NCBI GenBank assembly: GCA_004022145.1
Contig: RCNU01000011.1
Strand: one strand, 5' to 3'
DNA length: 64,000 nt
Origin: Paecilomyces variotii
Taxonomy: Eukaryota
The notes under the pieces are model-generated. The model had not been told where the DNA came from. It searched no databases and was given only the letters and a program-made list of their open reading frames with translations. Numbering within the stretch: the first letter of the stretch is position 1; each line of letters starts with the position of its first letter. Positions 35,755 through 52,300 of this stretch are shown piece after piece. The translations under genes and the position numbers were made by a program.

Positions 35755-38496
35755 GGTTTGGTTTGGTCTACCAGGGGTCTCTTCTGTCAATGAACGAAAA
35801 CAGGTGCCAATAAAATGCGGTTTATTTGTCCAAATTCAAATGTTATGTACTAGCCGTTTCTGGAATTCGCTTACATGTTCGAAGATTAAACTGAACTAGT
35901 TAACTAGTTAACTAAAAGGAGTATGATCTGTCACTGAATAATTGCAAACTGCTACATTTTTAACTTCCCGCGATACTCTCAAATGGCGCCGGCGCGGAGA
36001 CACTTAGCAATACCAAACCCACACGGGAGATGTAGGCATGAGTTTGACCAGATCCATGGATACTGTCAAGTATAAATATACAATCAGCTTGAACAGTAAG
36101 ATTGTCCCTTACATAATAGACTTAATAGGGAGTGTCTAGTCTGCTGGCCATCTGTTTCGGCCAAGATATTGTCGGGGTTCATCATAAAGCGAAGGTAATG
36201 TTAACTATTAGGGACCCTGGCAAATGGTACAAGTGACCTTGCACTATCTAACAAATCCTGGGCGTCTAGCTGTAGGCGACTGACTGAGTAGCTCCGTCTT
36301 ACAGATGCTTGAATCTTTCCGAGTTCGTCTACTCGCACGTCGCACGCATCATCAATCCAATGAACGCTTTCCTTAGCAACATATTCTCGACAAGTCTCCG
36401 ATCTGTCCCGCTGACCTTTGACAGAGAGAGGGGTAATGCTCACGAGGAACTCGGAAAAGCCAATGCCAACTCTGGAGCCCGCCTTGGTCCCATAGGGATG
36501 CCTGTTGGAGTAGTATGTGTTCAGGCAAGGTGGGAGCCATCATGCAAGTTTCTAGGTCAAACCCGGACGTCTCCATGCGGAATTCGTAATTAGAAGAGGT
36601 GATCCTGGGACATGATCACCGATTGCTCGTGAAATAACCTGACAGAGTGTCTGTAGGAAGGTTATACTACATAAACTTAAGATGATGTATCCAGATACAT
36701 ACATCTGTATCAATGCAGACTCCAAAGATGCAGTCCATCTTGGTCCGTTATTGCTAATCATAGTGGGCATTTTCTGACCATCATTAAAGGATATCCTTAG
36801 CACGTCGAGAGTAGGAGATTGGAGTTGTATAGATGATGCAGATGTACTATACATCATTCAGTGCTAGCATCTTTAGCGGTATGCATCTTCCCGAGAACAT
36901 TGTGTTCCCCTCAGCTGCAGTGGAACCGCTATTCCAGAATCTGGCTAGATATATGACAGTTGTCGAGGATAGTTATTAACAAACCGTATGCATGCGTCCA
37001 TATGAACTCCATAACTCAAGGTTGCGGTCCGTATAGCGGAAACCAACATGATCGCATGGCTGAGAGTGGACAGGATGATAACAGGCCTAGGGCCTTAGCT
37101 CCCTTGGTCTCCCAGGATGTCCATCTAGTCTTGTGCTTCTCGTGTGTGCCATCCTGGCTGCTGGTCGATTGCGAAAGGTGACTGGATGGGCGTTCTATGC
37201 CTGGAGGGGTGCCGGGCGCTAAATATCGTACTCTGGTTGGCGCACGAAAGCCCCGATGCGATGTGATCGCGACGAACACCAAAAATAGTGGACGAGAAGC
37301 CGACGGAGACTCTATTTTGGGACGATCACAAAATCGTCAGTCGACGCCCTCTGCAGCGCAGTCACCAATAGGGTCGGTATTCTAGATGCTTGGCTTGTTT
37401 CCCCCTCTTTGAGCTGATCCCGTCATTGGCAGTGGTGGACGACCATCACAATCGCCTGCAGAAGATGGCCGATGGATGGATTGATGATGGCTGATCGCCG
37501 GGATGAATGTGAACCACCGGATAGCAGCATCTCGTCGTCCATATAATCTGCTTGATCGCCCCAGCTCCAAGTCTCTTTTTCTTCCTTTTCTTCTCCAGCA
37601 AGCTTTTGCCTTTTCCAGAGCTGCCCATAGTTCGGAAGTCCCCCGGTTAGCACTGGTTGCAACCGTTTTTGTTTGTCTGTTCGTGGTTCTGATCTCTATA
37701 ATCTAATTGTTCAATTGCTTTGCTTTGTTGCATCTTTCTGAACCACATACATACATACATACGTCCACCGCCAATCCAACAAACAAAAGTAATAGACAAA
37801 CGAGCAGTGCTCTTGTCTATCTGTGGCCGGTATTAATCGGGTTGTCTCCTTGACTTTCGAACTATACAAACCAAAAACCAACAAACTGCTTTAATTACAA
37901 CGTCGCTGGTTCGACGTCCATCTTGTTGTTTTTTACAGCTCTGCCTTGCTCGGGCCTGAAGTTTCGGTCAGGTTGATTTTCGTGTGGAGGGTTAATACTG
38001 TTTCTCGACTGCAGTGTTGGACGAAGGATCCACGCCAAAAAAGTTGTCACTTCAAATTCGTGTCTTGTCGCGATCTACCTAGTCATTCGGTCTTCTTTTA
38101 CTTCTCGTCGAAGTTAATCATTTCGAGAGTCTCCGGTAGTCTCTTGTCAATTTCATCTTCTCTCGAACCCGTCCGGTTGCCATTGTGGCTCGATCTCAAT
38201 CGCAGACGGTATCTACCAAATCTCTCGACCATATCTTCGACTCTGTTAGCCAGTCAAGCCAACACGCTGGCTTGCATCTCGTGAAGACCCATCGCTAGAT
38301 ACATCTTTCGCAAACCTCCTGGTTTCCGCTGAGGAAGCTCTGTCTCCGACACCGAATCGTCGACAACATATATCTCTTTAATTTTATCGTCTTTCGTCCA
38401 TTGTTTAACGACCTTACGGCCCTCCTTCTACGGGAATCATAATCTAATATTTATTTCTATTTCACCTTTTTTATACAATTCGTTACTGCATCCATA

Positions 38497-39346
38497 ATGG
38501 CGACTGTGCAGCTCAACTTCTCTCTTCGGACCTCTGCCAACGTCAAGACGGTCCACCTCGTCGGATCATGGGATAAGTATTCTCGCCAACTCCCTCTTTC
38601 CAAGGATACTTCGAAGTCGGGATCATGGACAGGCAAGTTCCGCTTTCAGACATCGATGCTCAAGCTGGGTGGGCGGTATTGGTACTACGTAAGTCTACCC
38701 ATCTCCCTCGTCAGTTATTTCACTTCCAATCCCCAGGATTAACTAAATCATAAAGTATATCATGGACGGCTACCACGTTTCCCACGACCCCGCGCAAGAA
38801 TACACCGTTGAGAAAACCACCGGACGAAAGCTCAACGTCTTGGACGTGCCTGACCCGCGTAGTCCCACGTCTTCCAGCCACCACTCCCGACGCCAATCGA
38901 CCGATATTCCTAAAGGCCGCGCTCTATCGCCATCCAAGATCCAACACCCAAGACCCTCGAAACCCTACGAGTCGCGCCAAATCCGCGAAGATGACTTCAT
39001 CGTCGAAGAACTCGCGGACCAACTCGCATCATCCCGCCTCTCGGACGGGTACTACTCGAACAGCCCGCCTAGTTCCGTCGGCTCGTCGCTCTCCTCTCGA
39101 TCAGATAGCTCGTCCCCCTCTTCGCTGTCTTCTATGAGTGACCCGCCCACGCCCATCTGCCGTTGCGAGAGATACGGTATTACCCGCAAGGGAGACCGTG
39201 TCAAGTTAGACTGTGGCGGTAGCCGATGCGGATACTTCACCGAGTCATCTGAGGGATCAGACTGTTCGTCCGACGCGGAGTCCGATCACGACTATAGAGT
39301 CGCAAAGAGCGCTGCTCGTCGACAGGGCATCGTCGTCCGGAGATAA
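38497..39346 (+). CDS. esdC: EsdC-like early sexual development protein with N-terminal AMPK-beta-type glycogen-binding (CBM48-like) domain
   Basis: VHLVGSWDKY, YWYYYIMDGYHVSHDP, Ser-rich middle and Cys-rich C-terminal CRCERYGITRKGDRVKLDCGGSRCG. One intron at about 38689-38755. About 260 aa. Confidence 0.8.
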
Positions 39347-41156
39347 GCCAAGCAAAGGGACCATCGATCTTGATGGAATGTCCGACCTTTTCAATATGAG
39401 AGAGATCGTTGAAAACCTACACTTCTCGAACAGTTCTCGAGTTACGGCATCACATCAGAGCCATTCACTTCGAGAAGTCGACCCGCGCGCACACGTCGTT
39501 CGCATGTGCATTAATTTATTCTTTTTTTCTTCCAAGAACAAAAATATCAAGAAAAAGAAAAACCAGCACGGCCAATATCTCGGTGGAACGTCTTCTTCCC
39601 TACATGGGATGATGATGGCGATGACGGAAAGCACACGGCCCGTGGCAAAGCTGGTCTTCGTTACGCGTTGCTTCTCATCTTCATATCATGCTTATCCCTT
39701 GATTAAAAAAAGCACGGGAAGAACGCCGAGTCGCTTGACAAGGCCAACACATGAATACCCGCTACGTATCTCCTCAATATGGATACATTTGAGGATACGT
39801 CCAGGTGGGAAAGAATGACAAGGTCGTGTATCGTCGTCTTACTTGCTGTCTATCTTCTGCGTGCCGCCAGACAGTGGCATTCAATTCACAAGACAGGAAC
39901 TGTCAGATTTTATGACAAGTGGACGATAGCATACGACAATCGTGGTCTAGTGATGTTGTCTAGGTAGGCAGCCAAGTTAAATCAATAGATAGTGCCTAGA
40001 TAATCGAATTCAAGATGAATCAAGACCTTCAAAAGTACCTAATAACACCCTCTAAATGACAAACGTCTATGCTGAATCAATGTCTATCCTTATATGTCTT
40101 CTGGTATACAGATGCCAATCTATGGAACTGGACAAGTAACTTGAACCTGTCTCGCCCTGAGTTCTCGAGAGGGTGATTGGTAGTCTAATGTTAGAGGTCC
40201 AGGTAGAGTCTCGCCAACTAGGAGTTCTCCTTTTTGGTCGAGTGGCAGAAAGCCATCATCTAATGCCACACTCCGTATTTTCCTTGGCATATCTCATATC
40301 GACAGGCATTGAATCCTCCTGCAGAGTTACCTCAAGCGTACCTATCTATCTACACTCTGTCCCACTTTAACCATTCTTCATTATCGTCATTGGATTCTCT
40401 AATTGCCAGCTATAACTCTCTAGTGCGTGGATGTACATACATATGTATGTGCTTGATTTCAGAGCAAAAATCTGAATAACCGTTCGATAATCGTAGTAGC
40501 CAATCTCCATTCCCGGAACTAATCTAGCTTATCCCAACAAAACCTGAAATTTATGGGACGGTTCCGGGGAGATCGAATCAGGGATTCGCCCTTTTGAACG
40601 AGTGGCGTAGCGAGTTACGAGATCTTCCAAGTCATTTGCCTATCGCTTATGCTAACGAATGCGGAACACACTACAGTACTAACTAGGTAACTACTACTAC
40701 TACTACTTACCATCACCTTGCGGGGTACGTAATTTAATATCAACCAATTGCCAAAACCGGTAGATCCTATGTCCTCTCTCTCATACCAGTAAACGCGGTT
40801 TCTAAGGTTTACTATCTACCACTGGTAGGATTATCGCGCCTATGAGATGTGCGTTTCAGGGTGAGCTACTGAACACTGCTTAGTAGAAGCTAGCCCCCTT
40901 GATTAACATGAGGTATTTCAACCCCGCTGTATAATAATAATAATTAATCCATAACTACCAGGGGGAACCACGCTAGAATGCGTTCAGTTATCAAACCTGG
41001 TAGCGATCGTTCACTAAACGATCACATGATGAGAGTGATGTCACCCGTTGTAGAAAAGAAGAGGATACATCGTCTCTCTCTAACATTCTGTCCTTCTTCT
41101 CTACATCTCATTCTTCCCAAATTTCAAATCCACGTTGCCAGCGCCGATTTTCAACC

Positions 41157-41982
41157 ATGGCATATTCTCGGTCAAAGATACCTATCCCGCGGTTGCACAC
41201 TCGATCTGAGTCTCTCAGTGACCATACACCGCCCCAGCGGCGGCGCGCTTCTCGCGCGTGCCAGTCCTGTCGTGCGCGAAAGGCGAAATGCGACGAAGGC
41301 TGGCCAGCCTGTGGTCAATGCAAGGACTCGCATGTTCAGTGTGTCTACACGGGTGGAAAACGCGAAGAGCGCAACAGGTATGTATAGTATTACTAGCAAT
41401 TCCTCCGTGTCAAAAGGGAGGCAAGATCGCTCATTATTCACGCAGACGATTCGAGCTGCTCTCGAGAAAAGAGGCCGAGTATGAGGCCGTCTTATCGCAC
41501 ATCAGTCTCGCCAGTACCGATCCTTTGAGTCGGCTGGCAGCGCAGACGGTTCTTGAAAAGGTGCGAAATCCCTCGGTGCATCCACCACCTCCCAATGTAC
41601 TTCCTACCTGGGTCTGTCAGAATCTAATAATTTTGCGGACCGCTGCACTTAGTTTTCTCCCGATAAGATGGTTTTGAATCCACCCACTGTTCCGCCCGAC
41701 GTGGGTGCATCGACCTGCGATCCACTGTCTTCATACGTGATAGACGATGCACCCCAGCAGCCATTGGCGCAGCCGATCGGTTACATTGGCAATCCATTTC
41801 CAAGCTTCAGTCAGGTAAATGACGGATCACATGGACCTGTGAACGATCTCGGTCTGGGACTCGAAGCGAGTACAATCGGTACTGAGCCTGGCCACAGGGT
41901 ATCTTCTACCGCTTCGATGACTTATCTCGATCCCAACTTTGCCTTTGTCAATGACCTGGACGCGGCGCATTTTCTGACGTGA
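41157..41982 (+). CDS. Short Zn2Cys6 DNA-binding protein (~221 aa)
   Basis: RASRACQSCRARKAKCDEGWPACGQCKDSHVQCVY. Exons 41157-41377, 41446-41560 and 41653-41982 splice in frame. Confidence 0.8.
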
Positions 41983-44028
41983 TTTCTTCAAATTCCTCCG
42001 CCTTGGCAGGACACCGCCTTGACAGGACAGGATTCTCATTACTTGACAGAAGGTGCGTGTTAAATTTGTCTTGCGCTAAGTCGTGTTTTCTTTTCTATTC
42101 TTTTTTTTTTCACCTTGATGTCTGTTTCTCTTACTGTTTCACATGTATGTCTGGCGTTTTTCGATTATGTGGACCAGGAGCTCTCTTAGAAATAACCGGA
42201 CAGGCGGCATAATTATTTGAGCACTTGAAGCTCTTGCTGCGAGTTCGAAAAATGCTACGGGACGATCATTGTATCTCGTAGTTTAATGATGTAATGGAAA
42301 TATGACAAGATATCATATATACATGTATATATGTACAATGCACAGCTAGTATATTCTATACGATGGGGGGGGAGACTTCTAGCATCTAGACTCATCGTAT
42401 AATTAGAATCTAACCCCCCTCTACATCTAAAGTTAGGCAAACAATTAGTTCATTAACTAAGGTTCAATCTATACCATTTGCCCCATGTTCTAGGGCATAA
42501 AGAAATAACTAAAGAACTAATAACCCTATCTCTTCATCACATGTCTAAAGTTAATCGATTGAATAGTTAAATAGTCTTACTCTATAGATATTTATATCCT
42601 GCAGGTTAATGGAGAACGGGCAATCCAGTTCTTTTATTGGAAGTTGGATATTGCACGGCAATATTTCATCCAGTAATGAGGAGTTATATATGTAGGGGGA
42701 AGAAAGTGGTTGGTTGGTCAATCCTATAAGAAGATAGCCTTGTTGCCTGAGACCCGAGGTCTCGATCTTGATAACAATTTACCTCCTTTACCTCCATTGT
42801 GTTTAAAGCCGCAGGGACGACTGCCATGGAGAATAAGGAAGAAAATAGAACTAAATATTCATACTCGCTATGGAAGTGAAACATGCTAGACAAAGATGGG
42901 ATAGATTTGAAATAATACATAGTAGGAATGAATGAGATATGCTGTAAACAGTTGCTATTTTTCTGTTCAGGAAGTCACCAGCCTTCCTTCCATGGGTAGG
43001 TTCGACCTTGGTCTATGCCAAAATTACAAAAACAAAGAACGACTGAGTTGAAATGAGTATGATGCAAAAAGAAAAAAAAGAAGAAGAAATGAGCCCATTA
43101 AGAGAAGAGTACTCCCAACGCAATGCTAAAGGACCGTCTAAGCGATATCCGAGCTAGAAACCCCAAGGATGCAGGAGTGCAATGCAAATCAAGATATTAA
43201 CGCCAATTGCATCTCATCACGTTAGGATGATCGTGTCTTCAAACAGACTTGCTGTTACTTTTCCAATGATCCACATCACAAATCGCACCGTCTCTCTTAT
43301 TCCATCAATCATGTTTTGTCGAGTAGTGAAGAAAGGAAACGGTTTGTTCACGTAAGTTGTCGAGAATTGGCCGCAGTCGCATCGAATAACCCACAATCGT
43401 CGTAATGGCCAGCCAGTAGAGCAGAGAAAGTTGGAGACGGTTGGTCGATAGATTATGTCGCACAAACTGATCCACAGCAGTACTCCTCACATCTCGATAG
43501 CCAGCTGCACTCTTCGGGAGCAGTATGATGCAGGTCTATCCAGCAAACAGAGGAAACGTGTCCCATTACCAGCAGCCTATGTCGACAATCCCGGACGTCA
43601 AAAGAAACACTGCAGATTTCAAATCGAAGGGACATAAGAAAAGATGGCTCGTGCCGTATCGCCGCAGGAACCGGTCCCGAAAACTCCAGTAACGACTGAT
43701 AGATGAGATTATCGTTTTTTTTTTGCTTTGTTTTGTTTTGGTTTGGTTTTTTTGGGGAAATGGGCCTGCATTTCCGTGGTTTATGGTAGACAGAGAGCCA
43801 AGGTTAACACGGGGAAAGACCGGAAGGTCCACTCGTTCCGCTATGGAGGCATGCCCAGCACACCGACAGCTTCTGAGCAAACGAACCAAGCTCTCCCTCC
43901 TATGCTCTCTTGACTCTCCTCCACCCTCAAAAGGCCTCGTTCCCTGAAATCCATAGCTGACATCGTACAAGGGTGCCGTTGGCTTTAACCCCTATCCAAG
44001 TTGTCCCTTCTCGTTCAGACATCATTAT

Positions 44029-44223
44029 TCATTTGTAGCTCGTGCCTGGGGGTCCATTTGGACCACCTCGTCCGGTAGAGTGAGTCGGACACGCATATCC
44101 CACCAAGACAGTCTTCTCCTGCACTGTATGGCCACGTTGGCCGAATGCTTCGCATGGATCAACTGCGTGCTTGTAGTAGAGGCATCGGCATACGGAATAG
44201 CGTTCAACAACTTGGTAGCACAT
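44029..44223 (-). CDS. 64-aa Cys/His-rich microprotein (MCYQVVERYSVCRCLYYKH...)
   Basis: ATG in good context (TTCAAG-ATG) and a TATATA box about 155 nt upstream. Ordered pattern C2, C12, C14, H19, C24, H32, C45, H48. It resembles small hypothetical proteins I recall from other filamentous ascomycetes. Confidence 0.7.
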   Translation of the reverse strand: MCYQVVERYSVCRCLYYKHAVDPCEAFGQRGHTVQEKTVLVGYACPTHSTGRGGPNGPPGTSYK

Positions 44224-47200
44224 CTTGAAAAAGAGTGATCTGCTTTCTTGGATATGGTTGTTCTTTCGTGATTTATAGTCAAGGAATGACTGCTCGCAAT
44301 GAGATTGAGGGCGACTTAAACAGCAAGGCGCAATGGATGTCAAACGGAAGTTGGAAAGCGTCGCCGCTGTGAAGGGGTATATAGAGATCAATCTCCAAAA
44401 GAAAAAGGACGATTCCAGCAATCAGGATACGGCAACCTGACTGTTTGACCAAAGAGGCAGGCTTGACAGAGGCACAACAGGGTATAGCAAAGGATCAATA
44501 AATCAAATACACAACTGCTTCAACGAATGGCGCACTGTAGCAAACTTGTTGACAGCATCTCTGGTGGCCAGGCCAGACGATTTATATCCAAGAGAGAGTA
44601 GGCAGATGGGATGGAAGTAGAGAAGTTTAGTTTTAGAAAAGCCAGCCACAAAGTGGCCGGTGATGACCCTGCACCCGGGCGCGCCATGGACCCAGACAGG
44701 TACGGCGGACAGTTCTGCAAGGCGTCCACTGGATCCAGCATAGTAGTCTGTCTGTCTGTCTCCAGAAAGACCAGCAGTATGGTTCCCGCGAGATAGATCA
44801 CCACGGTACCGAATCAGTTAACCGCAATGCCAAAACAGGGCCCGAGTGCGAATATAGACTCATAATAGAGTCTCCGCCTGCACCGCCAGAGACGGGGCTT
44901 CCGCGGACAAGACCGAAAGACTATCACCAATCAACCGTGCGAGATCACTGGAATTCCTGCCAGGCTGCCCACCTGATGACTGCTTGCCCTAGCAGCTCAA
45001 GTGACAGCCTGTGCGGAATTTTATCCACCATGACGGGCACTTTGACGACGGCCAGCAGCTGGACAGGCGCGGGAATCGGCTGCTAGAGCAGCCACAGTCC
45101 AACCGGACTTGGCGTAGGGTTCGCACTCAGCTCGATGCGAGATCGACAGCGTTGCCTTATCCACTAGGTCGGGCCCCACGTCAGGGGAGAAATCATCTTG
45201 TCGGTCTTGTGCGATGCATAGTTGGGTCCGATCGCTTGCGCATCATTGACTGTCAGCCTCGAAGCTTTGAAGAGTGATCCATCTGCTGAATTCGTAGTAC
45301 AGAGGATGGGGCCTCGTGAGTCGCTTCAACATTCAAGTCCATCTGGTAGTGGGTGTGTTTTCGCTCCCCTAATTTCGAGAAGTCATTGTTTCCTGCAACA
45401 GACGGACTCAATGCAGACTCCGGTTTTCCGGGATCTGACCAATGTCTCTTGTCCCTCGGGCTTCAAACTTCTAAAGTAGAGACAAGCGCTTGACGTGCCT
45501 ACATTAGTCGCGCGCGCACCAGCGATAGCGTGCAGCGGTTCAGCTTGACGCATCCCGATGGAGACCAGGGTGGACAGTATACCGCTGCCCACTGGACCCT
45601 AAGCGCAAGACCGTTAGAACTTAGAGACATCTACGGTACTTTGTTTCGGAACCTGGAACAGGCGTCTCTTTGAGGCCAAACAAAAAAAAAAAAACAAAAG
45701 CAAAAACCCCGATCATGTGCTAGGCCTGCTCAGGGACCCCGGTCGTAACTTGTCTATCCGATCCAGGTCTCTATAACTTGTCTCACTCAGGATCTCACTG
45801 TGAAGCATCGGCGTCGACGGCATCGCTGATCGACTTCGGCCATGAGCCTGAGCCACGGTGGACCGGGTGAGGCGCAGCAGGGTCAGGATTTCGTCCGGGA
45901 TCGCTTTCCCCGAACATCTAAGAGTCCTAGCTTACTAGTATAGACAAGCAATGATGCAATCTCACTAGATTGGTTTGCTCAGAGCGTCATCCTGTGTTCA
46001 ACTTCGTGGCTATCGGCAACAATAGTCAGTTCCAGATGAGCGAGATCTCGATGCCTGAGCAGTCGAGGGCGACGAGGCGTGTTGATTGATCGGCCGCAGC
46101 CGAAAATAGTTGCCGGCGGTCGATCTGTCCTCTCAGACTCCAGGGTACATTCCATTTCTGGGATGTCTGTGCACAGGGCTACGGCAATCTTCTCCAAGAA
46201 GTTGTTTCTGCCATGACCCCAAGTCTCAAGATGGTGCTGCTATTATTATTACACGTCAAAACGTGATGCGAAGGCCACTTTTCTGCCTCGGGCACTCATT
46301 ATTATTATTCTGCACATTTCAGCTGCCTTCTGTTCGTCCCAGACCTGATCAGTGGGGCCGCGTGGAGACCGGCTAGAGTTAGTGAAGAATGGTCGTCATC
46401 GGTGATTTGGGCGAGTGTATAGTAAGTTTACTCTAGAGTAAATCGAAGCATGGAAGTATTAGCATTGAGCAATCAATTCGATACTAGCAGTGCGAATATG
46501 CTCCATATGCATTTCCCCTTTTTGGGTCTGGAGAGCCGCATGGCATGGTTCTGCTCGACATGATCGGAACCATGGTACATTGTCAGAACAGTTCTTGCGG
46601 GGGCAAATATCGGGCAAGGCACTTAGCTAGTACATAGTACACGGCAACAATTCAACACGGAAGCTGAATGTTGCCCATCATTCTCCTGGTAGGTACCTAG
46701 ATGCCCCCACGGATAACCCGGAAGAAGACTCGTCTGTCGAGAATTTCCATCTCCTTCCTCGCATACTGATTTTCGCCACTGACAGCTGTGCTTTGGACTA
46801 GTACACTGTAAATCGTAAGTGTCTGATCAAAGAAAGTGAGGCCCGTCACTACTGCAAGTAAGAAGAGGCTTGAGTCATTTGGGATCAGAGGAGCCACCAG
46901 CCACAGAAGACGGGGTGTCAAAGGACCCATGGGTCAAAGTGCGAGGAATCTTCAGCACCAGCCTCACCAATAACTAACTAACTCACGATGAGTTAGTGGA
47001 TGGAGCCGGACAGAATCGATTGATCGACTAACTATGTAGTAGGTAAGGAGCTAGCCATATCTATGGCAACTAGGACAAGAATAGCCAGCAGGGGAGAATT
47101 CCGTCGGTGAGAGCAGAAAAAATCCGCGAGAAAATCGCATGGGCTGCCTGCTCAGCCCTACGGACAAGCCGCACTTTACTGGAAACAGCTTAGTGTCCCC

Positions 47201-49174
47201 TAGCCACACCCCTGTGCGGCTCATTCTGCCGCCTTTTCCACCAATCACCATCCAAGCCATGAGTGTGGCGGTGAACCGTCCACGAGCCGGCGGCCTGAGG
47301 CTCTCGTGACTTGTCGCGGACCGCTCTTTGATGACTATCGTGTCTATGTATGTATGTACATCGCAGACGTAATCCTCATTATTATTCTGACTGCTTGCTC
47401 AGTTGTAGTTATTGGCTCTGATGACGGAAACCTCCCTGCAGAAAACAACCAGGCAACTACTGATGACGGTCATGAGATTAGCATGTCACGTCTCGAATGC
47501 AAAAGACCTCTGTTTTATTTATTTGTTTCTATGAATTACATGAAATTTACTACTGCAGTATGTGGATACTAGCTGATCATAGACCCAGTATACATATCCC
47601 ACTGTCCACATGGCGAGTAAGTACCTACCTAATTACTATGGTACACAGTTAGTCGCCAATAGTACTGTACTGATATATTTCCAGAACCTCCTATCCGGTC
47701 ATCTCCGTTCAAACATTTAGTCAACAAATCAGACACTTTCTAAAACAGCTGAAGCACCCACACAATGCACGTGACGATCTGTTCCGCAGATATTGATCTG
47801 CTACAATTGCCTCTTTGCTCGCATCATATCAATCAGCAACACCCTGGTTATTTTCCAGGGATCAACGTTGCCTCCCAGAAACAAGCTTGATATTCCCTGC
47901 GCTGATCCCTTACATGGTCCTCGTGTCCATATGACTCAGGAAATAGCTGTCTCCATGTGGTTATGGATTCTGGAAGCGTCTAGGCAGGCCAGATCCAATA
48001 ATCAGAAATCATGACTCTTCTCATCGGGCTATCCTGTAGACTGCCCAAACATATTCTAAGATATATGTGGAATATCTGCAGTCATCCCGGTAGTATTCTC
48101 CCCACGAGCTTTATTAATGACCTAGACACGACTCACCCCATCTTTATGAAGTCGGACACATGATGCTATCAGTCATCTTGTCCGTTGGCAGCTGAGCCTC
48201 TTCACTTACTGCTGCGATCAGGGTCCCCTTAGGCAGACAGGCATCGTAAGGCTCGCTGCTTCACGTTTCACAGACTATCAATCAGCAAGCAGACCGATTC
48301 CAGACCCAGCGCAACGGGCAGACTGACACGCTCTCCTACTGTTGCTTACTACACCCTGCCATCCTGATACTGCCTCGATAGCGGGTCTCAAACAAGGGCC
48401 TTTCGACCAGATTGATAACATTATATACATCCCTGTCTGTTGTCCTATTTTCATCCATCAAATAACTAGGCCTGTAAACCTCCAAGCCTCGATCCTCTCC
48501 GATCAATTGCTTATATGTCAGACTCATACTCAGGCATGACATGAACCGTACGATCAACTGCAATGATTCATCTTCTATAAACCTTTAGTCCCACTTTCAC
48601 GCCCATAATCATACCCATACTTTTGAAGACATCGGTGTCGCATCATGAGACAAAGCGATGAGATGCTATCAGTGTTGGTGCTCGTGCTGATGCTGATGCT
48701 TTATCATCGATTCAGCCTCAGTCATACCTTCCCCGCTATCTATATTATTATGTAATTGAACGAGCCTCAAAATCAGAACTGCAACATCGTACATGAGCCA
48801 AAAACACAAGAAAACACAAGAAAACCTTTGGCCTCCTTATTCGTTAGCGGAAACTTGGCCTGAAATAAAATTGTAAGTGGTGTGTTCTGGGTAAGTTTAG
48901 GTATGCGCTGATGTCAATTCATATAGATTTCGTCCCCAGTTCTAAAGCTGACAAGTTATAGTTGACGAGAATTATCACTCGGTGTAGTTACCACATTGTC
49001 TTCTGGTTATGGAAGATGCTTAATGAATTCTGTGCAACGATGGAGAAATATTTTCATGAAGGTTGATGAATTATATTATCCTTATGGTGAAATTCATTGA
49101 ATGCGAATGCAACTTGTCCCCAGATACCATGATGCTTATAGTAGTTTTCACTCCATGACACCGGTTAAGTTTTG

Positions 49175-49219
49175 TCTTCTCTTCTCTTCTCTTCTCTTCT
49201 CTTCTCTTCTCTTCTCTTC
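49175..49219 (+). repeat. (TCTTC)9 pentanucleotide microsatellite, downstream of NUP85
   Basis: Directly visible. Confidence 0.95.
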
Positions 49220-49387
49220 TCCCTCTCTTTTCTCTTGCAATGTAATGTGATATCAGATCGCTCCAGACTAGTCCAGTTACAGTGCAGAAATAAAATATAA
49301 AAAAAAAGAACACGATCATATGAGAGGCACACATAAAACATTGCAGATATCACAGCTTGAACAATGCTCAATGATCATACAAGTAAG

Positions 49388-52300
49388 TCATGATGAGACG
49401 ACCGATCCCAACGCGCCGAAACTCAAACCGCGGGCTAAGCCAAGACGGAGAATACGGAGAATATCAGAGCCCTTTGCATCTTCGGGTAATCCGGCGCGCC
49501 AGTCCCATCCTCTCTGGACGGTCTCGGATTTCTGGCCTGGTCGAGGGACGAGAATGCCGGAGCCGGAGCCGGAGCCGGAGCGCGAGCGGGAGTGAGATCC
49601 AAGCATTTCGTTGCCGATGAGGGAGAACCCGCTCGAGGCTGTCGCGTTGGAGACGGATTTCTTGAACAGTGTTCGTGGGGAGGGTGGCAGGACGAAGGAG
49701 GCAGAGGAGTCACTTCCTGATGTAGAGGACCGTTCGTAGGAGTGATAGTGCACGAGGGTCGAGCGGAAGCATTCTTCACACTGGGCGTAGACCCGCGGAG
49801 TGACGGTTTCAAGATCTTCGACGGCAGAGAGAATGGTGGATTGCTGAGAAAGTGTAAGAAGGGCGGTTGGTTCTATATCATGTTAGCATTTGTTTTCCCT
49901 ACTGACCCGATCTGGATATACTTACGGTCCACAAAAATCAATGCCTCTCCTAGCAGCGCGAGCAGGCCGTCCACTTGCACGGCTGAATCTCGGTCCGGAT
50001 CATACAGTCCGCCGTAGATACTGTCGGCTGCACTGCGGATGACTGCAACCAAAGCATCCGCTGCAGCTCGTTTCCTTGCCAGCGGCTTGTGCTTAGGCTT
50101 CTCGCCCTCTTTCAGGTCAATCTCTTCATCACGGATATCGTAGAACCGACGTAATGTGGCGTAACCACTGAAGTAGAACTGCAGGATGCGGGCGGCTTCA
50201 TTGTCGACAGCTGCAATAGCTGACAAACAGGTCTTGGGCTCACTGATCAGAGATCTCAACTGCTCGTCCAAATCTGCTGCGGCCGGGTAGGCACGGGACT
50301 GCACGAGGGAATATGATGTCAAAAGGTCAAGGACGGATTTGACTTTACGAGAGGAATGAGCACGAGCGTAGCAGACAAGTGCTAGGCCGTATTCTTCGGA
50401 TTCGGAGGCGACACGGTCTCCGTATCTCTGTAATATCGTTAGCACCGAAGTCGAAAAAAAAAAAAAAAAAGAACCTCGAAGAAAATGTGGATTGGCGGAT
50501 ATTTGGGGAGGCAACTGACCTCAGATACTCTTCTCCCTTCATTATCTAGACCAAGCTCGGTGCACAGCAAGACCACCTTGTCCATTTGCTCCGCTGTGTC
50601 AAGTGGTATCCTGTCAAGTATCTCTGAAACCTTCTTCTGCATGGTATCGGCGTCATCAAGTCGGCTAAGGATCTCCAAGGAAACCTCCCATCCGTCCCGT
50701 ACATCATCCTGGTGTTCAAAGCGCTGGCGACCAAACAGTCCTTCAGCGTAGAGCACGAGGATATCGTCCTTTTGAAGACGACGAGTAGCCGCGTTTCCAT
50801 CTTGACCGTAAGAAAGGACCATTAGATCGTTCTCACTCAAAAGCCCTGGCAACGGCTTTCCTCCAGCCGCAGTGTCGAGCCAGCCGCCCACAGAGGCAAT
50901 TTCTGCTACCGCAGAAGCTACGCACAAGGACCAGAGCTGCAGCAACCCGAGAACACCTTCGACATTGCCCTCGAAAATCGATGCTAGACCAACCTCAAGG
51001 CTGTTCAAGGAGTTCAGACGGAATGCAGCTTCTCCTTGTATTTCATCATTCGTAACGCAGGAAAACGTATAGTCAAGGCGACGAAGGTAGGCGTCCTCGG
51101 GATTGGCATCTACGGAGCGGGGCACGTGTGAATGCGATTTCGTACGTGAACGCTTCGCGCTGGACGTGCTGGCATCGATGTCTTTCTGGCTGATAATCTC
51201 ACTGTCATCTTCACCGTCCCACCAGACCGTGAGCCCAATCGTGGCTTCCACCCAGTCTTGAGACTGCGCCATAATGGCAGTCGAGTCACCAAGAAGGATT
51301 CCGTATAAAGCTTTCAGATTCTGATAAATTGTCCAAGGCACACGACTCTCAGCCATACGGGCCGACTGGGAAAACGAGGGGTAACCACCTAGTCTCCGGC
51401 TCGTATCTTGCCCCATACCGAAATTGATCGCCTGGAAGCGAGTTGTGGGAATTGGAAGTGGTGGAGGCGGTTGGTCCTGGCCCTCAGCAAACTCTTCGAG
51501 CTCAGCTAGAGCATTAACAACGCGCTTCCTATAGGACGTCCATTCTTCTCCCTTGATGTCCCAGTCATCTTGCTGCACAAGAGGCGAAGCATCCAGAATC
51601 TGAATCGCTTTGTTGACAGTCTTCTGAACATTCTGAAGCTGGGCTCCACGGTAACCAGCTTGGGTCAATCCATCCTCTAATGCAGATCTGGCGTAATTAA
51701 AATCCGCAGACCGTAGAACCGCAACCACTTCGGAGTGGAAACCCCGCAGGACAGAAGCCTGGACAACCTCCCAGAAACTCGGAGATGCCGTAGGATTTGG
51801 ACTGACATTTTGCAAAGTCTGTATGTCGCCCGTCTGAGGAGGGTGGAAGTCGTTCAACCAATCCAGCAGCACTTTGGGGACGGGTTCGTATGTCTTCGCG
51901 CTGGGACCGGACAAAACCAGACTTCGAGCTGTCGCGCGTACGGCAGAGCCTTTGCTGCCTCCCAGATTGGCATCCACCAGCGGTGGATGGTGAAGCTGGA
52001 GGAGCAAGGAACCCAAGAAACTGGCCTTCGCGACTCCAGGAGCATTCTCGCCGGGCCCAATGCCACTAGCTGCATTATACGGCCGCTGTGTCTTGCTCTC
52101 CCTCTCTGCGCACTCGTACCATATATCCGCTAGTTCCGTCGACGCTTCCGATAGTGCTGCCTGAAAGTCGACCTCCTTGAACTCCGACTGGCGCACTTTG
52201 TCGTACATCCGACATACCTCGTCTTCTGTCTCAATGATCATATCGCTCGGTTCAGACACCATCGCCTTCTGGGTCCTAGTGGCCAAATCGCGCACTATCG

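What the first reader, a model, noticed from the sequence alone, without database searches (positions are those of the whole stretch)
44029..44400. Candidate zinc-binding microprotein gene (64 aa) with its own promoter and ~5 kb of upstream non-coding DNA
Seen: MCYQVVERYSVCRCLYYKHAVDPCEAFGQRGHTVQEKTVLVGYACPTHS plus a short Gly/Pro tail. It has five Cys and three His, enough for two Zn sites, and no signal peptide. There is a TATATA box at about 44378-44383 and a good ATG context, with no other gene until NUP85 ends at 49388. I recall near-identical N-termini among uncharacterised ascomycete proteins but know of no assigned function. Inference: a conserved, tightly regulated intracellular microprotein below usual annotation cut-offs. 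This is the best candidate for undescribed biology in this window.
Basis: partly seen in the sequence, partly recalled or inferred. Interest (0 to 1): 0.75.

Follow-up and report, generated by a model that had tools for sequence, protein, structure and literature searches.

The report
Conserved fungal Cys/His microprotein gene
This is a real, transcribed gene for a 64-residue protein whose 50-residue cysteine/histidine-rich core is strongly conserved across many filamentous ascomycetes, yet it matches no described protein family, solved structure or paper found here.

Summary
The ORF at 44029..44223 (-) exists as described: 64 aa, 5 Cys and 3 His. It is a protein-coding gene under strong purifying selection (median dN/dS 0.09; third-codon-position entropy about three times higher). 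Contigs from RNA libraries of two studies cover it unspliced. It belongs to a large Pezizomycotina family (477 clusters at 50% identity). The family is defined by a ~50-residue domain that always starts at Met1-Cys2 and has eight near-invariant Cys/His plus an invariant Glu7. The domain occurs alone (53-87 aa, conserved synteny) or at the N-terminus of 385-1000 aa proteins that have no known domain. AlphaFold2 predicts residues 1-50 confidently as three strands and a helix. No Pfam, PDB-sequence, fold or literature match was found. The best reading is an undescribed two-metal (probably zinc) mini-domain that acts as a binding module; its function is unknown. RNA contigs run through the TATATA hexamer, and a strain variant changes it. 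The 5-kb upstream gap is not conserved in relatives and carries a spliced transcript. The gene is not below annotation cut-offs, since dozens of genomes list it as a hypothetical protein.

The parts
44029..44223 (-). Coding sequence of the 64-aa microprotein (ATG 44223..44221, stop TGA 44031..44029), with no intron
   Evidence: Searches give the ORF. Colinear RNA-library contigs cover 43761..44969 (X5) and 43761..44832 (X7) with no joint. Similarity to relatives starts at Met1 and not upstream of it.
44074..44223 (-). Codons 1-50: the conserved N-terminal Cys/His domain (M1 C2 E7 C12 C14 H19 C24 H32 C45 H48)
   Evidence: Alignments A1 and A2. Counts over 304 unique in-register domains are. AlphaFold2 block-mean pLDDT is 87-95 for residues 1-50, with strands 2-9, 15-21, 34-41 and helix 46-52. 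NG86 median dN/dS is 0.09.
44032..44073 (-). Codons 51-64: short Gly/Pro-rich tail, predicted disordered. It lacks the DSG[YF] motif that most relatives carry.
   Evidence: pLDDT is below 50 for residues 54-64. DSG[YF] is present in 67 of 99 near-length homologs and in 39 of 43 unique short-form loci. It is absent here and in the Talaromyces-type relatives P0001-P0003.
44224..44557 (-). 334-nt stretch upstream of the start codon with no ATG on the coding strand; probably the 5' leader (inference)
   Evidence: upstream ATGs occur only at 44863, 44741, 44687 and 44558.
44378..44383 (-). Other TATA-like hexamers (TATAAA) lie at 44272..44277 and 44581..44586.
   Evidence: Sequence. RNA contigs span it, and a strain variant at 44379 changes it to TATACA.
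43761..44969 (.). Span covered by single unspliced contigs from RNA libraries (strand not given by contigs). Further contigs at 43094..43709 lie beyond a skipped repeat at 43710..43760.
   Evidence: table 8, records 9 and 16 and records 8, 14, 15, 20. Eight RNA rows from three studies hold 0.57-0.66 of the words of 43700-44600.
44986..46997 (-). Upstream region covered by contigs of run X3, with a joint that skips 46798..46967 (CT..AC on +, which is GT..AG on -). This is either a spliced non-coding RNA or a long alternative 5' leader.
   Evidence: table 5 and table 8 records 2 and 3. No Pfam family in any of the 10 longest ORFs of 44450-49300.

Best explanation
The locus is a real, intron-less, transcribed protein-coding gene for a 64-aa cytosolic or nuclear microprotein. 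Its first 50 residues are a member of an undescribed domain family of filamentous ascomycetes. The domain always sits at the very N-terminus (Met1-Cys2). It carries eight near-invariant Cys/His (C2, C12-x-C14, H19, C24, H32, C45-x2-H48) and an invariant Glu7.

Shown here: coding constraint, family membership, synteny, transcription, and a confident predicted beta-beta-beta-alpha fold with no detectable known relative.

Inferred: the eight ligands bind two metal ions, most likely Zn2+, which rigidify a domain too small to have a hydrophobic core. The C12-x-C14 knuckle in the first hairpin and C45/H48 at the start of the helix would form one treble-clef-like site. C2, H19, C24 and H32 would form the other.

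Further inferred, and weaker: the domain is a binding module. The stand-alone form would work as a small adaptor or competitor that shares a partner with the 385-1000 aa paralogs carrying the same N-terminal domain. That is a microProtein-type mode of action.
For: Homologs: all 99 of 99 near-length candidates match at E<=1e-3, at 59-88% identity, across Eurotio-, Dothideo-, Leotio- and Sordariomycetes. There are 477 cluster representatives at E<=1e-3 and 308 at E<=1e-10.

Conservation: over 304 unique in-register domains the counts are C2 301, H19 300, C24 303, H32 300, C45 295, H48 292 and E7 304 (C12 and C14 were fixed by the register filter).

N-terminal position: the domain starts at residue 3 or earlier in 208 of 321 proteins. 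In 109 of the 113 others a Met sits at domain position 1.

Coding constraint: across 44 unique short forms mean pN is 0.18 against pS 0.81. Median dN/dS is 0.09 in the 242 pairs with finite dS. Codon-position entropy is 26.8/20.5/67.2. Both strain variants inside the ORF are synonymous.

Gene structure: 59 of 79 metagenome loci have uninterrupted short ORFs of 53-87 aa and 14 have long ORFs of 385-457 aa.

Synteny: a NUP85-like gene lies upstream in 5 loci. The homolog of the gene at window 38443-39343 lies downstream, convergent, in 12 loci.

Co-occurrence: short and long forms are listed for the same genome in three species, Leptodontidium sp., Phialocephala subalpina and Corynespora cassiicola.

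Transcription: unspliced contigs from RNA libraries of two studies cover the ORF. X5 also carries a GT..AG-spliced contig of the neighbouring gene, so it holds processed RNA of this organism.

Fold: AlphaFold2 on 130 sequences gives mean pLDDT 82.5, with block means of 87-95 for residues 1-50.
Against: No metal was measured. I could not inspect model coordinates, so the two-site assignment is inference from ligand positions relative to predicted secondary structure. Translation itself is not shown, since no Ribo-seq or proteomics data were available. The RNA evidence is contigs only, so strand, ends and expression level are unknown. No known zinc-finger family or fold matched, so 'zinc finger' is an analogy and not membership. 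The window copy lacks the DSG[YF] tail motif of most relatives. Nothing here shows a binding partner. Whether this genome has a long paralog could not be tested because no genome is held.
Confidence: 0.7

Rival explanations
1. The conserved Cys/His bind a redox-active centre (an Fe-S cluster, or a redox-switch zinc-thiolate site) rather than purely structural zinc, and the protein is a small redox or metal sensor or carrier.
For: C12-x-C14-x4-H19-x4-C24 is a compact 3Cys-1His set, and C2/H32/C45/H48 is a 2Cys-2His set. From recalled knowledge, such ligand sets also bind [2Fe-2S] clusters (CDGSH and Rieske types). The weak, non-significant Foldseek rows include the Zn(Cys)4 domains of PerR/Zur/Fur sensors (best E 2.8).
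Confidence: 0.15
2. The key feature is the invariant Met1-Cys2. After Met removal, the free N-terminal Cys would be modified (oxidised and arginylated as an N-degron, or lipidated), so the domain would be a conditional stability or localisation signal.
For: M1 occurs in 300 and C2 in 301 of 304 unique domains. The domain is never found behind an N-terminal extension that lacks a Met at its first position, in 317 of 321 proteins. Most relatives also carry a DSGYxS tail motif (67 of 99). From recalled knowledge this resembles the beta-TrCP-type phosphodegron DSGxxS, which hints at regulated turnover.
Against: AlphaFold2 places Cys2 in strand 2-9 at block pLDDT 95, so it is part of the fold and probably a metal ligand. 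From recalled knowledge, N-terminal Cys is not a destabilising residue in budding yeast, and no fungal N-terminal Cys oxidase is known. The window copy lacks the DSG motif.
Confidence: 0.1
3. The window copy is a decaying or truncated version (64 aa against the usual 72-87 aa), or only the first exon of a longer gene.
For: It is shorter than most orthologs and lacks the DSG[YF] motif. Long forms with the same N-terminus exist.
Against: All conserved core residues are intact. The closest relatives share the short tail, including the 64-aa Talaromyces pinophilus protein P0001, together with P0324 and P0061. RNA contigs are colinear through the stop codon with no joint. Both strain variants are synonymous.
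Confidence: 0.03

Closest known systems
Uncharacterised 'hypothetical proteins' of Pezizomycotina with the MCY..ERY..C.C.Y..H..D.C N-terminus (e.g. Talaromyces pinophilus DPV78_011283, Aspergillus clavatus ACLA_065600, Parastagonospora nodorum SNOG_11515)
   Same: Same domain with all conserved residues, 59-88% identity, same small size and conserved gene neighbourhood.
   Different: The window copy has the short tail type without DSG[YF]. None of these proteins has a name, Pfam family, structure or paper that I could find.
Small two-zinc or treble-clef-type zinc-binding domains (recalled structural classes)
   Same: Eight Cys/His in 47 residues. A C-x-C knuckle lies in a beta-hairpin, and Cys/His lie at the N-terminus of a helix.
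Plant microProteins such as MIF / ZF-HD dimerisation-domain proteins and LITTLE ZIPPER (recalled concept)
   Same: A stand-alone copy of a domain that also heads larger paralogs in the same genomes.
   Different: There is no sequence relationship: Pfam ZF-HD_dimer is hit by 2 of 130 members, best E 0.0034, and not by the window protein. No dimerisation or competition has been shown.
Pfam PF14194 Cys_rich_VLP
   Same: A weak local match of residues 2-23 to profile positions 35-55, recurring in 45 of 130 members.
   Different: The score is 13.5 bits against a cut-off of 27, the best E among members is 0.0091, and only 21 of 57 profile positions are covered. This is not membership.

Membership tests
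Pezizomycotina N-terminal Cys/His ('MCY') domain family (unnamed) | Domain begins at Met1-Cys2 of the protein | tested here: met
   for the window protein. for the family: M1 in 300 and C2 in 301 of 304 unique domains.
Pezizomycotina N-terminal Cys/His ('MCY') domain family (unnamed) | E7, C12-x-C14, Y16, H19, D22, C24, H32, V41-G42, C45-x2-H48 in register | tested here: met
   all of these are invariant columns and present in the window protein; each is present in 292-304 of 304 unique domains.
Pezizomycotina N-terminal Cys/His ('MCY') domain family (unnamed) | Short-form orthologs lie in a conserved neighbourhood (NUP85-like gene upstream; homolog of window 38443-39343 downstream, convergent) | tested here: met
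   5 loci have the NUP85-like gene and 12 loci have the downstream neighbour.
Pezizomycotina N-terminal Cys/His ('MCY') domain family (unnamed) | Tail with a DSG[YF]x[ST] motif (present in most short forms, not all) | tested here: not met
   67 of 99 homologs and 39 of 43 unique short-form loci have it; the window copy does not. The motif is not universal, so this does not exclude membership.
Pfam PF14194 Cys_rich_VLP | Score at or above the gathering cut-off (27 bits) | tested here: not met
   13.5 bits, E 0.082.
Pfam zinc-finger families (C2H2, CCHC knuckles, ZF-HD_dimer and others) | Significant HMM match | tested here: not met
   no such family for the window protein at E<=10. ZF-HD_dimer in 2 of 130 members, zf-CCHC_3 in 1 and zf-CCHC_6 in 1, all below their cut-offs.
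Structural zinc-binding domain (functional class) | Stoichiometric Zn bound by Cys/His in tetrahedral sites | not testable with these tools
   Eight conserved ligands are present, but model coordinates could not be inspected and there is no metal assay.
Known solved folds (PDB) | Structural similarity of the predicted domain to a solved chain | tested here: inconclusive
microProtein-type regulators (functional class) | A small single-domain protein plus larger paralogs with the same domain in the same genome | tested here: inconclusive
   Met in three named relatives. The window's own genome is not held.
microProtein-type regulators (functional class) | The domain mediates protein-protein binding that titrates the larger paralog or its partner | not testable with these tools

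The most novel reading that the evidence does not exclude
The strictly N-terminal Met-Cys domain is a previously undescribed two-metal fold in which the N-terminal Cys2 takes part in metal or redox sensing. The stand-alone 53-87 aa form would then be a fungal microProtein that competes with the 385-1000 aa paralogs bearing the same domain. In most lineages its turnover would be set by a DSGYxS phosphodegron-like tail. Together these would form a hidden regulatory module shared by many filamentous ascomycetes.
Probability: 0.12. Interest if true: 0.8.

Novelty: new variant of a known kind. Interest (0 to 1): 0.55.

Why it matters
Few microproteins of filamentous fungi have a known role. In the passages I read of a 2024 review (PMC11413187), the characterised fungal cases were mostly from S. 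cerevisiae, and a term count found 'zinc' and 'cysteine' nowhere in its main text. Here a 50-residue domain keeps 59-88% identity across fungal classes. It has eight conserved metal-type ligands and a fixed position at the N-terminus. It heads both microproteins and large proteins that are otherwise unannotated. Defining its metal, structure and partner would annotate hundreds of 'hypothetical proteins' at once, including some in plant pathogens and industrial moulds, and could add a new family to the zinc-binding domains.

Tried and rejected
- Homodimer with 4 Zn: no verdict (score 0.01 against a mark of 0.32). This is not evidence either way.
- PDB sequence search with the A1 profile: 0 hits at E<=10.
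- ESM Atlas: only unnamed Ascomycota clusters, and no usable named cluster.
- Tree of 171 domain sequences (52 columns; proteins of 113-329 aa and those not starting with MC were left out). It was unresolved: 3 of 168 inner branches were starred. Short/long labels needed 27 changes against 42.4 in shuffles. Whether the short form arose once cannot be told.
- Ligand co-loss: the apparent losses are mostly register shifts or truncated gene models, so they do not help assign sites.
- N-terminal extension of the protein (130-aa stop-to-stop frame): rejected, because there is no similarity upstream of Met1.
- Own genome: not held, so paralogs in this organism were not tested.
- Rfam and tRNA scans of 41500-50000: none found.
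- Pfam on the 10 longest ORFs of 44450-49300: none.
- RNA evidence not used: stretches without RNA-contig cover in X5 and X7 (e.g. 45121-46071) and contig depths are not evidence. X8's 6.7-kb contig spans genes and intergenic DNA alike and was set aside as DNA-like. X3 showed no depth over the ORF although the index lists it as a holder; this is unexplained.
- Literature: 0 papers for seven peptide motifs and ten locus tags. A general search listed 15 papers, none on this family judging by title and the start of the abstract.
- Earlier findings of this scan: none.
Full report
**Observation.** It has Cys at 2, 12, 14, 24 and 45 and His at 19, 32 and 48. The TATATA hexamer is at 44383..44378, and the start codon has A at -3. 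No stop-to-stop ORF of 150 aa or more lies between 41677 and 49388. The ORFs from 49388 upward belong to a gene with a Pfam Nup85 match (E 3.9e-19). A Zn(2)-Cys(6) gene lies downstream, convergent, at about 41004-41982 (Pfam Zn_clus E 3.3e-9; three GT..AG joints in RNA contigs).

**It is a coding gene.**
- A word-indexed search of 5.8 billion proteins returned 99 of 99 candidates at E<=1e-3. These were 50-111 aa long and 59-88% identical. Every source name was 'hypothetical' or 'uncharacterized', from Eurotiomycetes, Dothideomycetes, Leotiomycetes and one Xylariales species.
- An exhaustive phmmer search found 477 cluster representatives at E<=1e-3 and 308 at E<=1e-10. Two of the listed hits, P0105 and P0174, are repeat artefacts and were dropped from later counts.
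- A scan of metagenome contigs found 195 relatives among 240 candidate stretches, and 80 loci were kept. I examined 79 of them; L031 was left out because its match starts at residue 4. Of the 79, 59 have an uninterrupted short ORF of 53-87 aa, 14 have a long ORF of 385-457 aa, 5 are cut by the contig end, and 1 is 132 aa.
- On the 150-nt core of 44 unique short forms, mean pN is 0.18 and mean pS is 0.81. Median dN/dS is 0.09 in the 242 of 946 pairs with finite dS. Entropy by codon position is 26.8/20.5/67.2.
- Similarity to relatives begins at Met1. The in-frame upstream stretch (the 130-aa stop-to-stop frame) aligns only with gaps and without conservation.

**Transcription.** Eight RNA-library rows from three studies hold 0.57-0.66 of the sampled words of 43700-44600. 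I laid four runs.
- X5 and X7, metatranscriptomes from two studies, each give one unspliced contig, covering 43761..44969 and 43761..44832. Each contig has 12 letters that differ from the window, so they come from another strain.
- Both differences inside the ORF are synonymous: 44164 (Ala20) and 44191 (Val11).
- X5 also carries a contig of the neighbouring Zn-cluster gene with a GT..AG joint (41374/41443). It therefore holds processed RNA of this organism.
- X8 gave a 6.7-kb contig across everything and looks like DNA, so I did not use it.
- Contigs cannot give strand, ends or expression level.

**Promoter and leader.** In that strain position 44379 is G on the + strand, which makes the hexamer TATACA. 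On the coding strand there is no ATG between 44557 and 44224, a stretch of 334 nt. Upstream ATGs occur at 44558, 44687, 44741 and 44863. A TATAAA lies at 44586..44581 and another at 44277..44272. My inference is that the main start site lies between about 44550 and 44240. This needs 5'-end data.

**The 5-kb upstream gap.**
- No Pfam family matched any of its 10 longest ORFs, and there is no Rfam family or tRNA.
- Run X3 (organism-labelled; typed as RNA by a guess, but spliced in the neighbouring gene) has an 1806-nt contig at 44986..46798. It also has a joint that skips 46798..46967, with CT..AC ends on the + strand, which is GT..AG on the minus strand. Part of the gap is therefore transcribed and spliced on the same strand as the microprotein gene.
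- The gap is not a family feature. From the NUP85-like gene to the microprotein it is about 5.5, 2.5, 1.8 and 1.3 kb in L006/7, L058, L055 and L034. Over 32 loci the median distance to the nearest upstream ORF of 150 aa or more is 1.4 kb, and the maximum is 3.1 kb.
- Only one non-coding block is conserved with a relative: 45587..45504 against L006/L007 (76% over 86 nt, E 5e-8). Its core is 49 nt at 86% identity.

**The family.**
- Of the 323 proteins held, 321 match an HMM of alignment A1.
- The domain starts at residue 3 or earlier in 208 of them. In 109 of the other 113, a Met sits at domain position 1, so those look like upstream-extended ORF calls. In effect the domain is always N-terminal.
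- Over 304 unique in-register domains the counts are M1 300, C2 301, E7 304, H19 300, C24 303, H32 300, C45 295 and H48 292. C12 and C14 were the register filter. The apparent losses are mostly register shifts or truncated gene models.
- Long forms of 344-998 aa carry the same N-terminus and no Pfam domain (0 families in 10 of 10; '-' for all listed except two Aspergillus alpha/beta-hydrolase models, which are probably fused gene calls).
- Short and long forms are both listed for Leptodontidium sp., Phialocephala subalpina and Corynespora cassiicola.
- The short form keeps its neighbours. A NUP85-like gene lies upstream in 5 loci, and the homolog of window 38443-39343 lies downstream in 12 loci.
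- Most short forms have a DSG[YF]x[ST] tail motif: 67 of 99 homologs and 39 of 43 unique short-form loci. The window copy and its Talaromyces-type relatives have a shorter tail without it.

**Structure.** AlphaFold2 on 130 sequences gives mean pLDDT 82.5. Block means are 87-95 for residues 1-50 and below 50 for residues 54-64. The model has strands at 2-9, 15-21 and 34-41 and a helix at 46-52. Nothing known matches:
- Pfam: only Cys_rich_VLP, at 13.5 bits against a cut-off of 27. Across 130 members, that family is hit weakly by 45 and ZF-HD_dimer by 2.
- PDB sequences: 0 hits at E<=10.
- ESM Atlas: only unnamed Ascomycota clusters.

Very small domains score low in all of these, so 'new fold' is not shown.

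**Mechanism.**
- Shown: a constrained, transcribed microprotein with a confidently predicted compact fold and eight conserved metal-type ligands.
- Inferred: it binds two metal ions, most likely zinc. One site would be built from the C12-x-C14 knuckle plus C45/H48 at the start of the helix, an arrangement I recall as treble-clef-like. The other would use C2, H19, C24 and H32. I could not inspect coordinates, so this assignment is open.
- Inferred more weakly: the domain is a binding module, and the stand-alone form acts as an adaptor or competitor relative to the long paralogs.
- Rivals: a redox or Fe-S centre; a role centred on the N-terminal Cys; and a decaying or first-exon copy, which is unlikely.

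**Literature.** I found no paper with any of seven peptide motifs or ten ortholog locus tags. A general search listed 15 papers, none on this family judging by title and the start of the abstract. For the review PMC11413187 I saw passages only; a term count found 'zinc' and 'cysteine' nowhere in its main text. Supplements and most subscription-journal papers were not searchable.

**Verdict.** It is already present in databases as a hypothetical protein, so it is not unannotated biology. Its domain, though, is undescribed, strongly conserved and positionally constrained. The promoter and 'tightly regulated' claims are not supported. Interest is moderate (0.55).

Noticed in passing
window 45504-45587 (minus strand); L006/L007 8826-8910: This is the only non-coding block conserved with a relative: 76% over 86 nt (E 5e-8), with a 49-nt core at 86% identity and an identical 12-mer 36 nt upstream of the core. 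It lies about 1.3 kb upstream of the microprotein ATG, at a similar distance in both genomes. Three of the four single-base differences fall in one codon phase, which is too few to call it coding.
   Followed up: partly
window 44986-46997: Run X3 has an 1806-nt contig here and a joint that skips 46798-46967, with GT..AG ends on the minus strand. The 'non-coding' gap therefore carries a spliced same-strand transcript, either a lncRNA or a long 5' leader.
   Followed up: partly
window 38443-39343 (+): A two-exon gene with no Pfam hit on either exon is the conserved convergent neighbour of the microprotein in 12 loci from several fungal classes. It was not identified.
   Followed up: partly
window 41004-41982 (+): A Zn(2)-Cys(6) transcription-factor gene. 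RNA contigs show three short GT..AG introns, with joints at 41374/41443, 41558/41651 and 41811/41895.
   Followed up: partly
L001, L036, L044, L059, L069, L071 and relatives; P0113, P0117: Long paralogs (385-457 aa as uninterrupted ORFs; up to 998 aa in databases) carry the same N-terminal domain followed by an acidic Ser/Asp-rich linker and a helical region (pLDDT above 90 in blocks). They have no Pfam or fold match, so this is a second uncharacterised family.
   Followed up: partly
tails of short-form homologs (P0001-P0099; 43 unique loci): A DSGY-x-S/T motif is conserved in most tails. From recalled knowledge it resembles the DSGxxS phosphodegron. It is absent from the window copy.
   Followed up: partly
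window 43710-43760: An A-rich low-complexity repeat in the 3' region breaks the RNA contigs. Contigs continue to 43094, so the 3' UTR may be up to about 0.9 kb, or a convergent transcript may overlap here.
   Followed up: no
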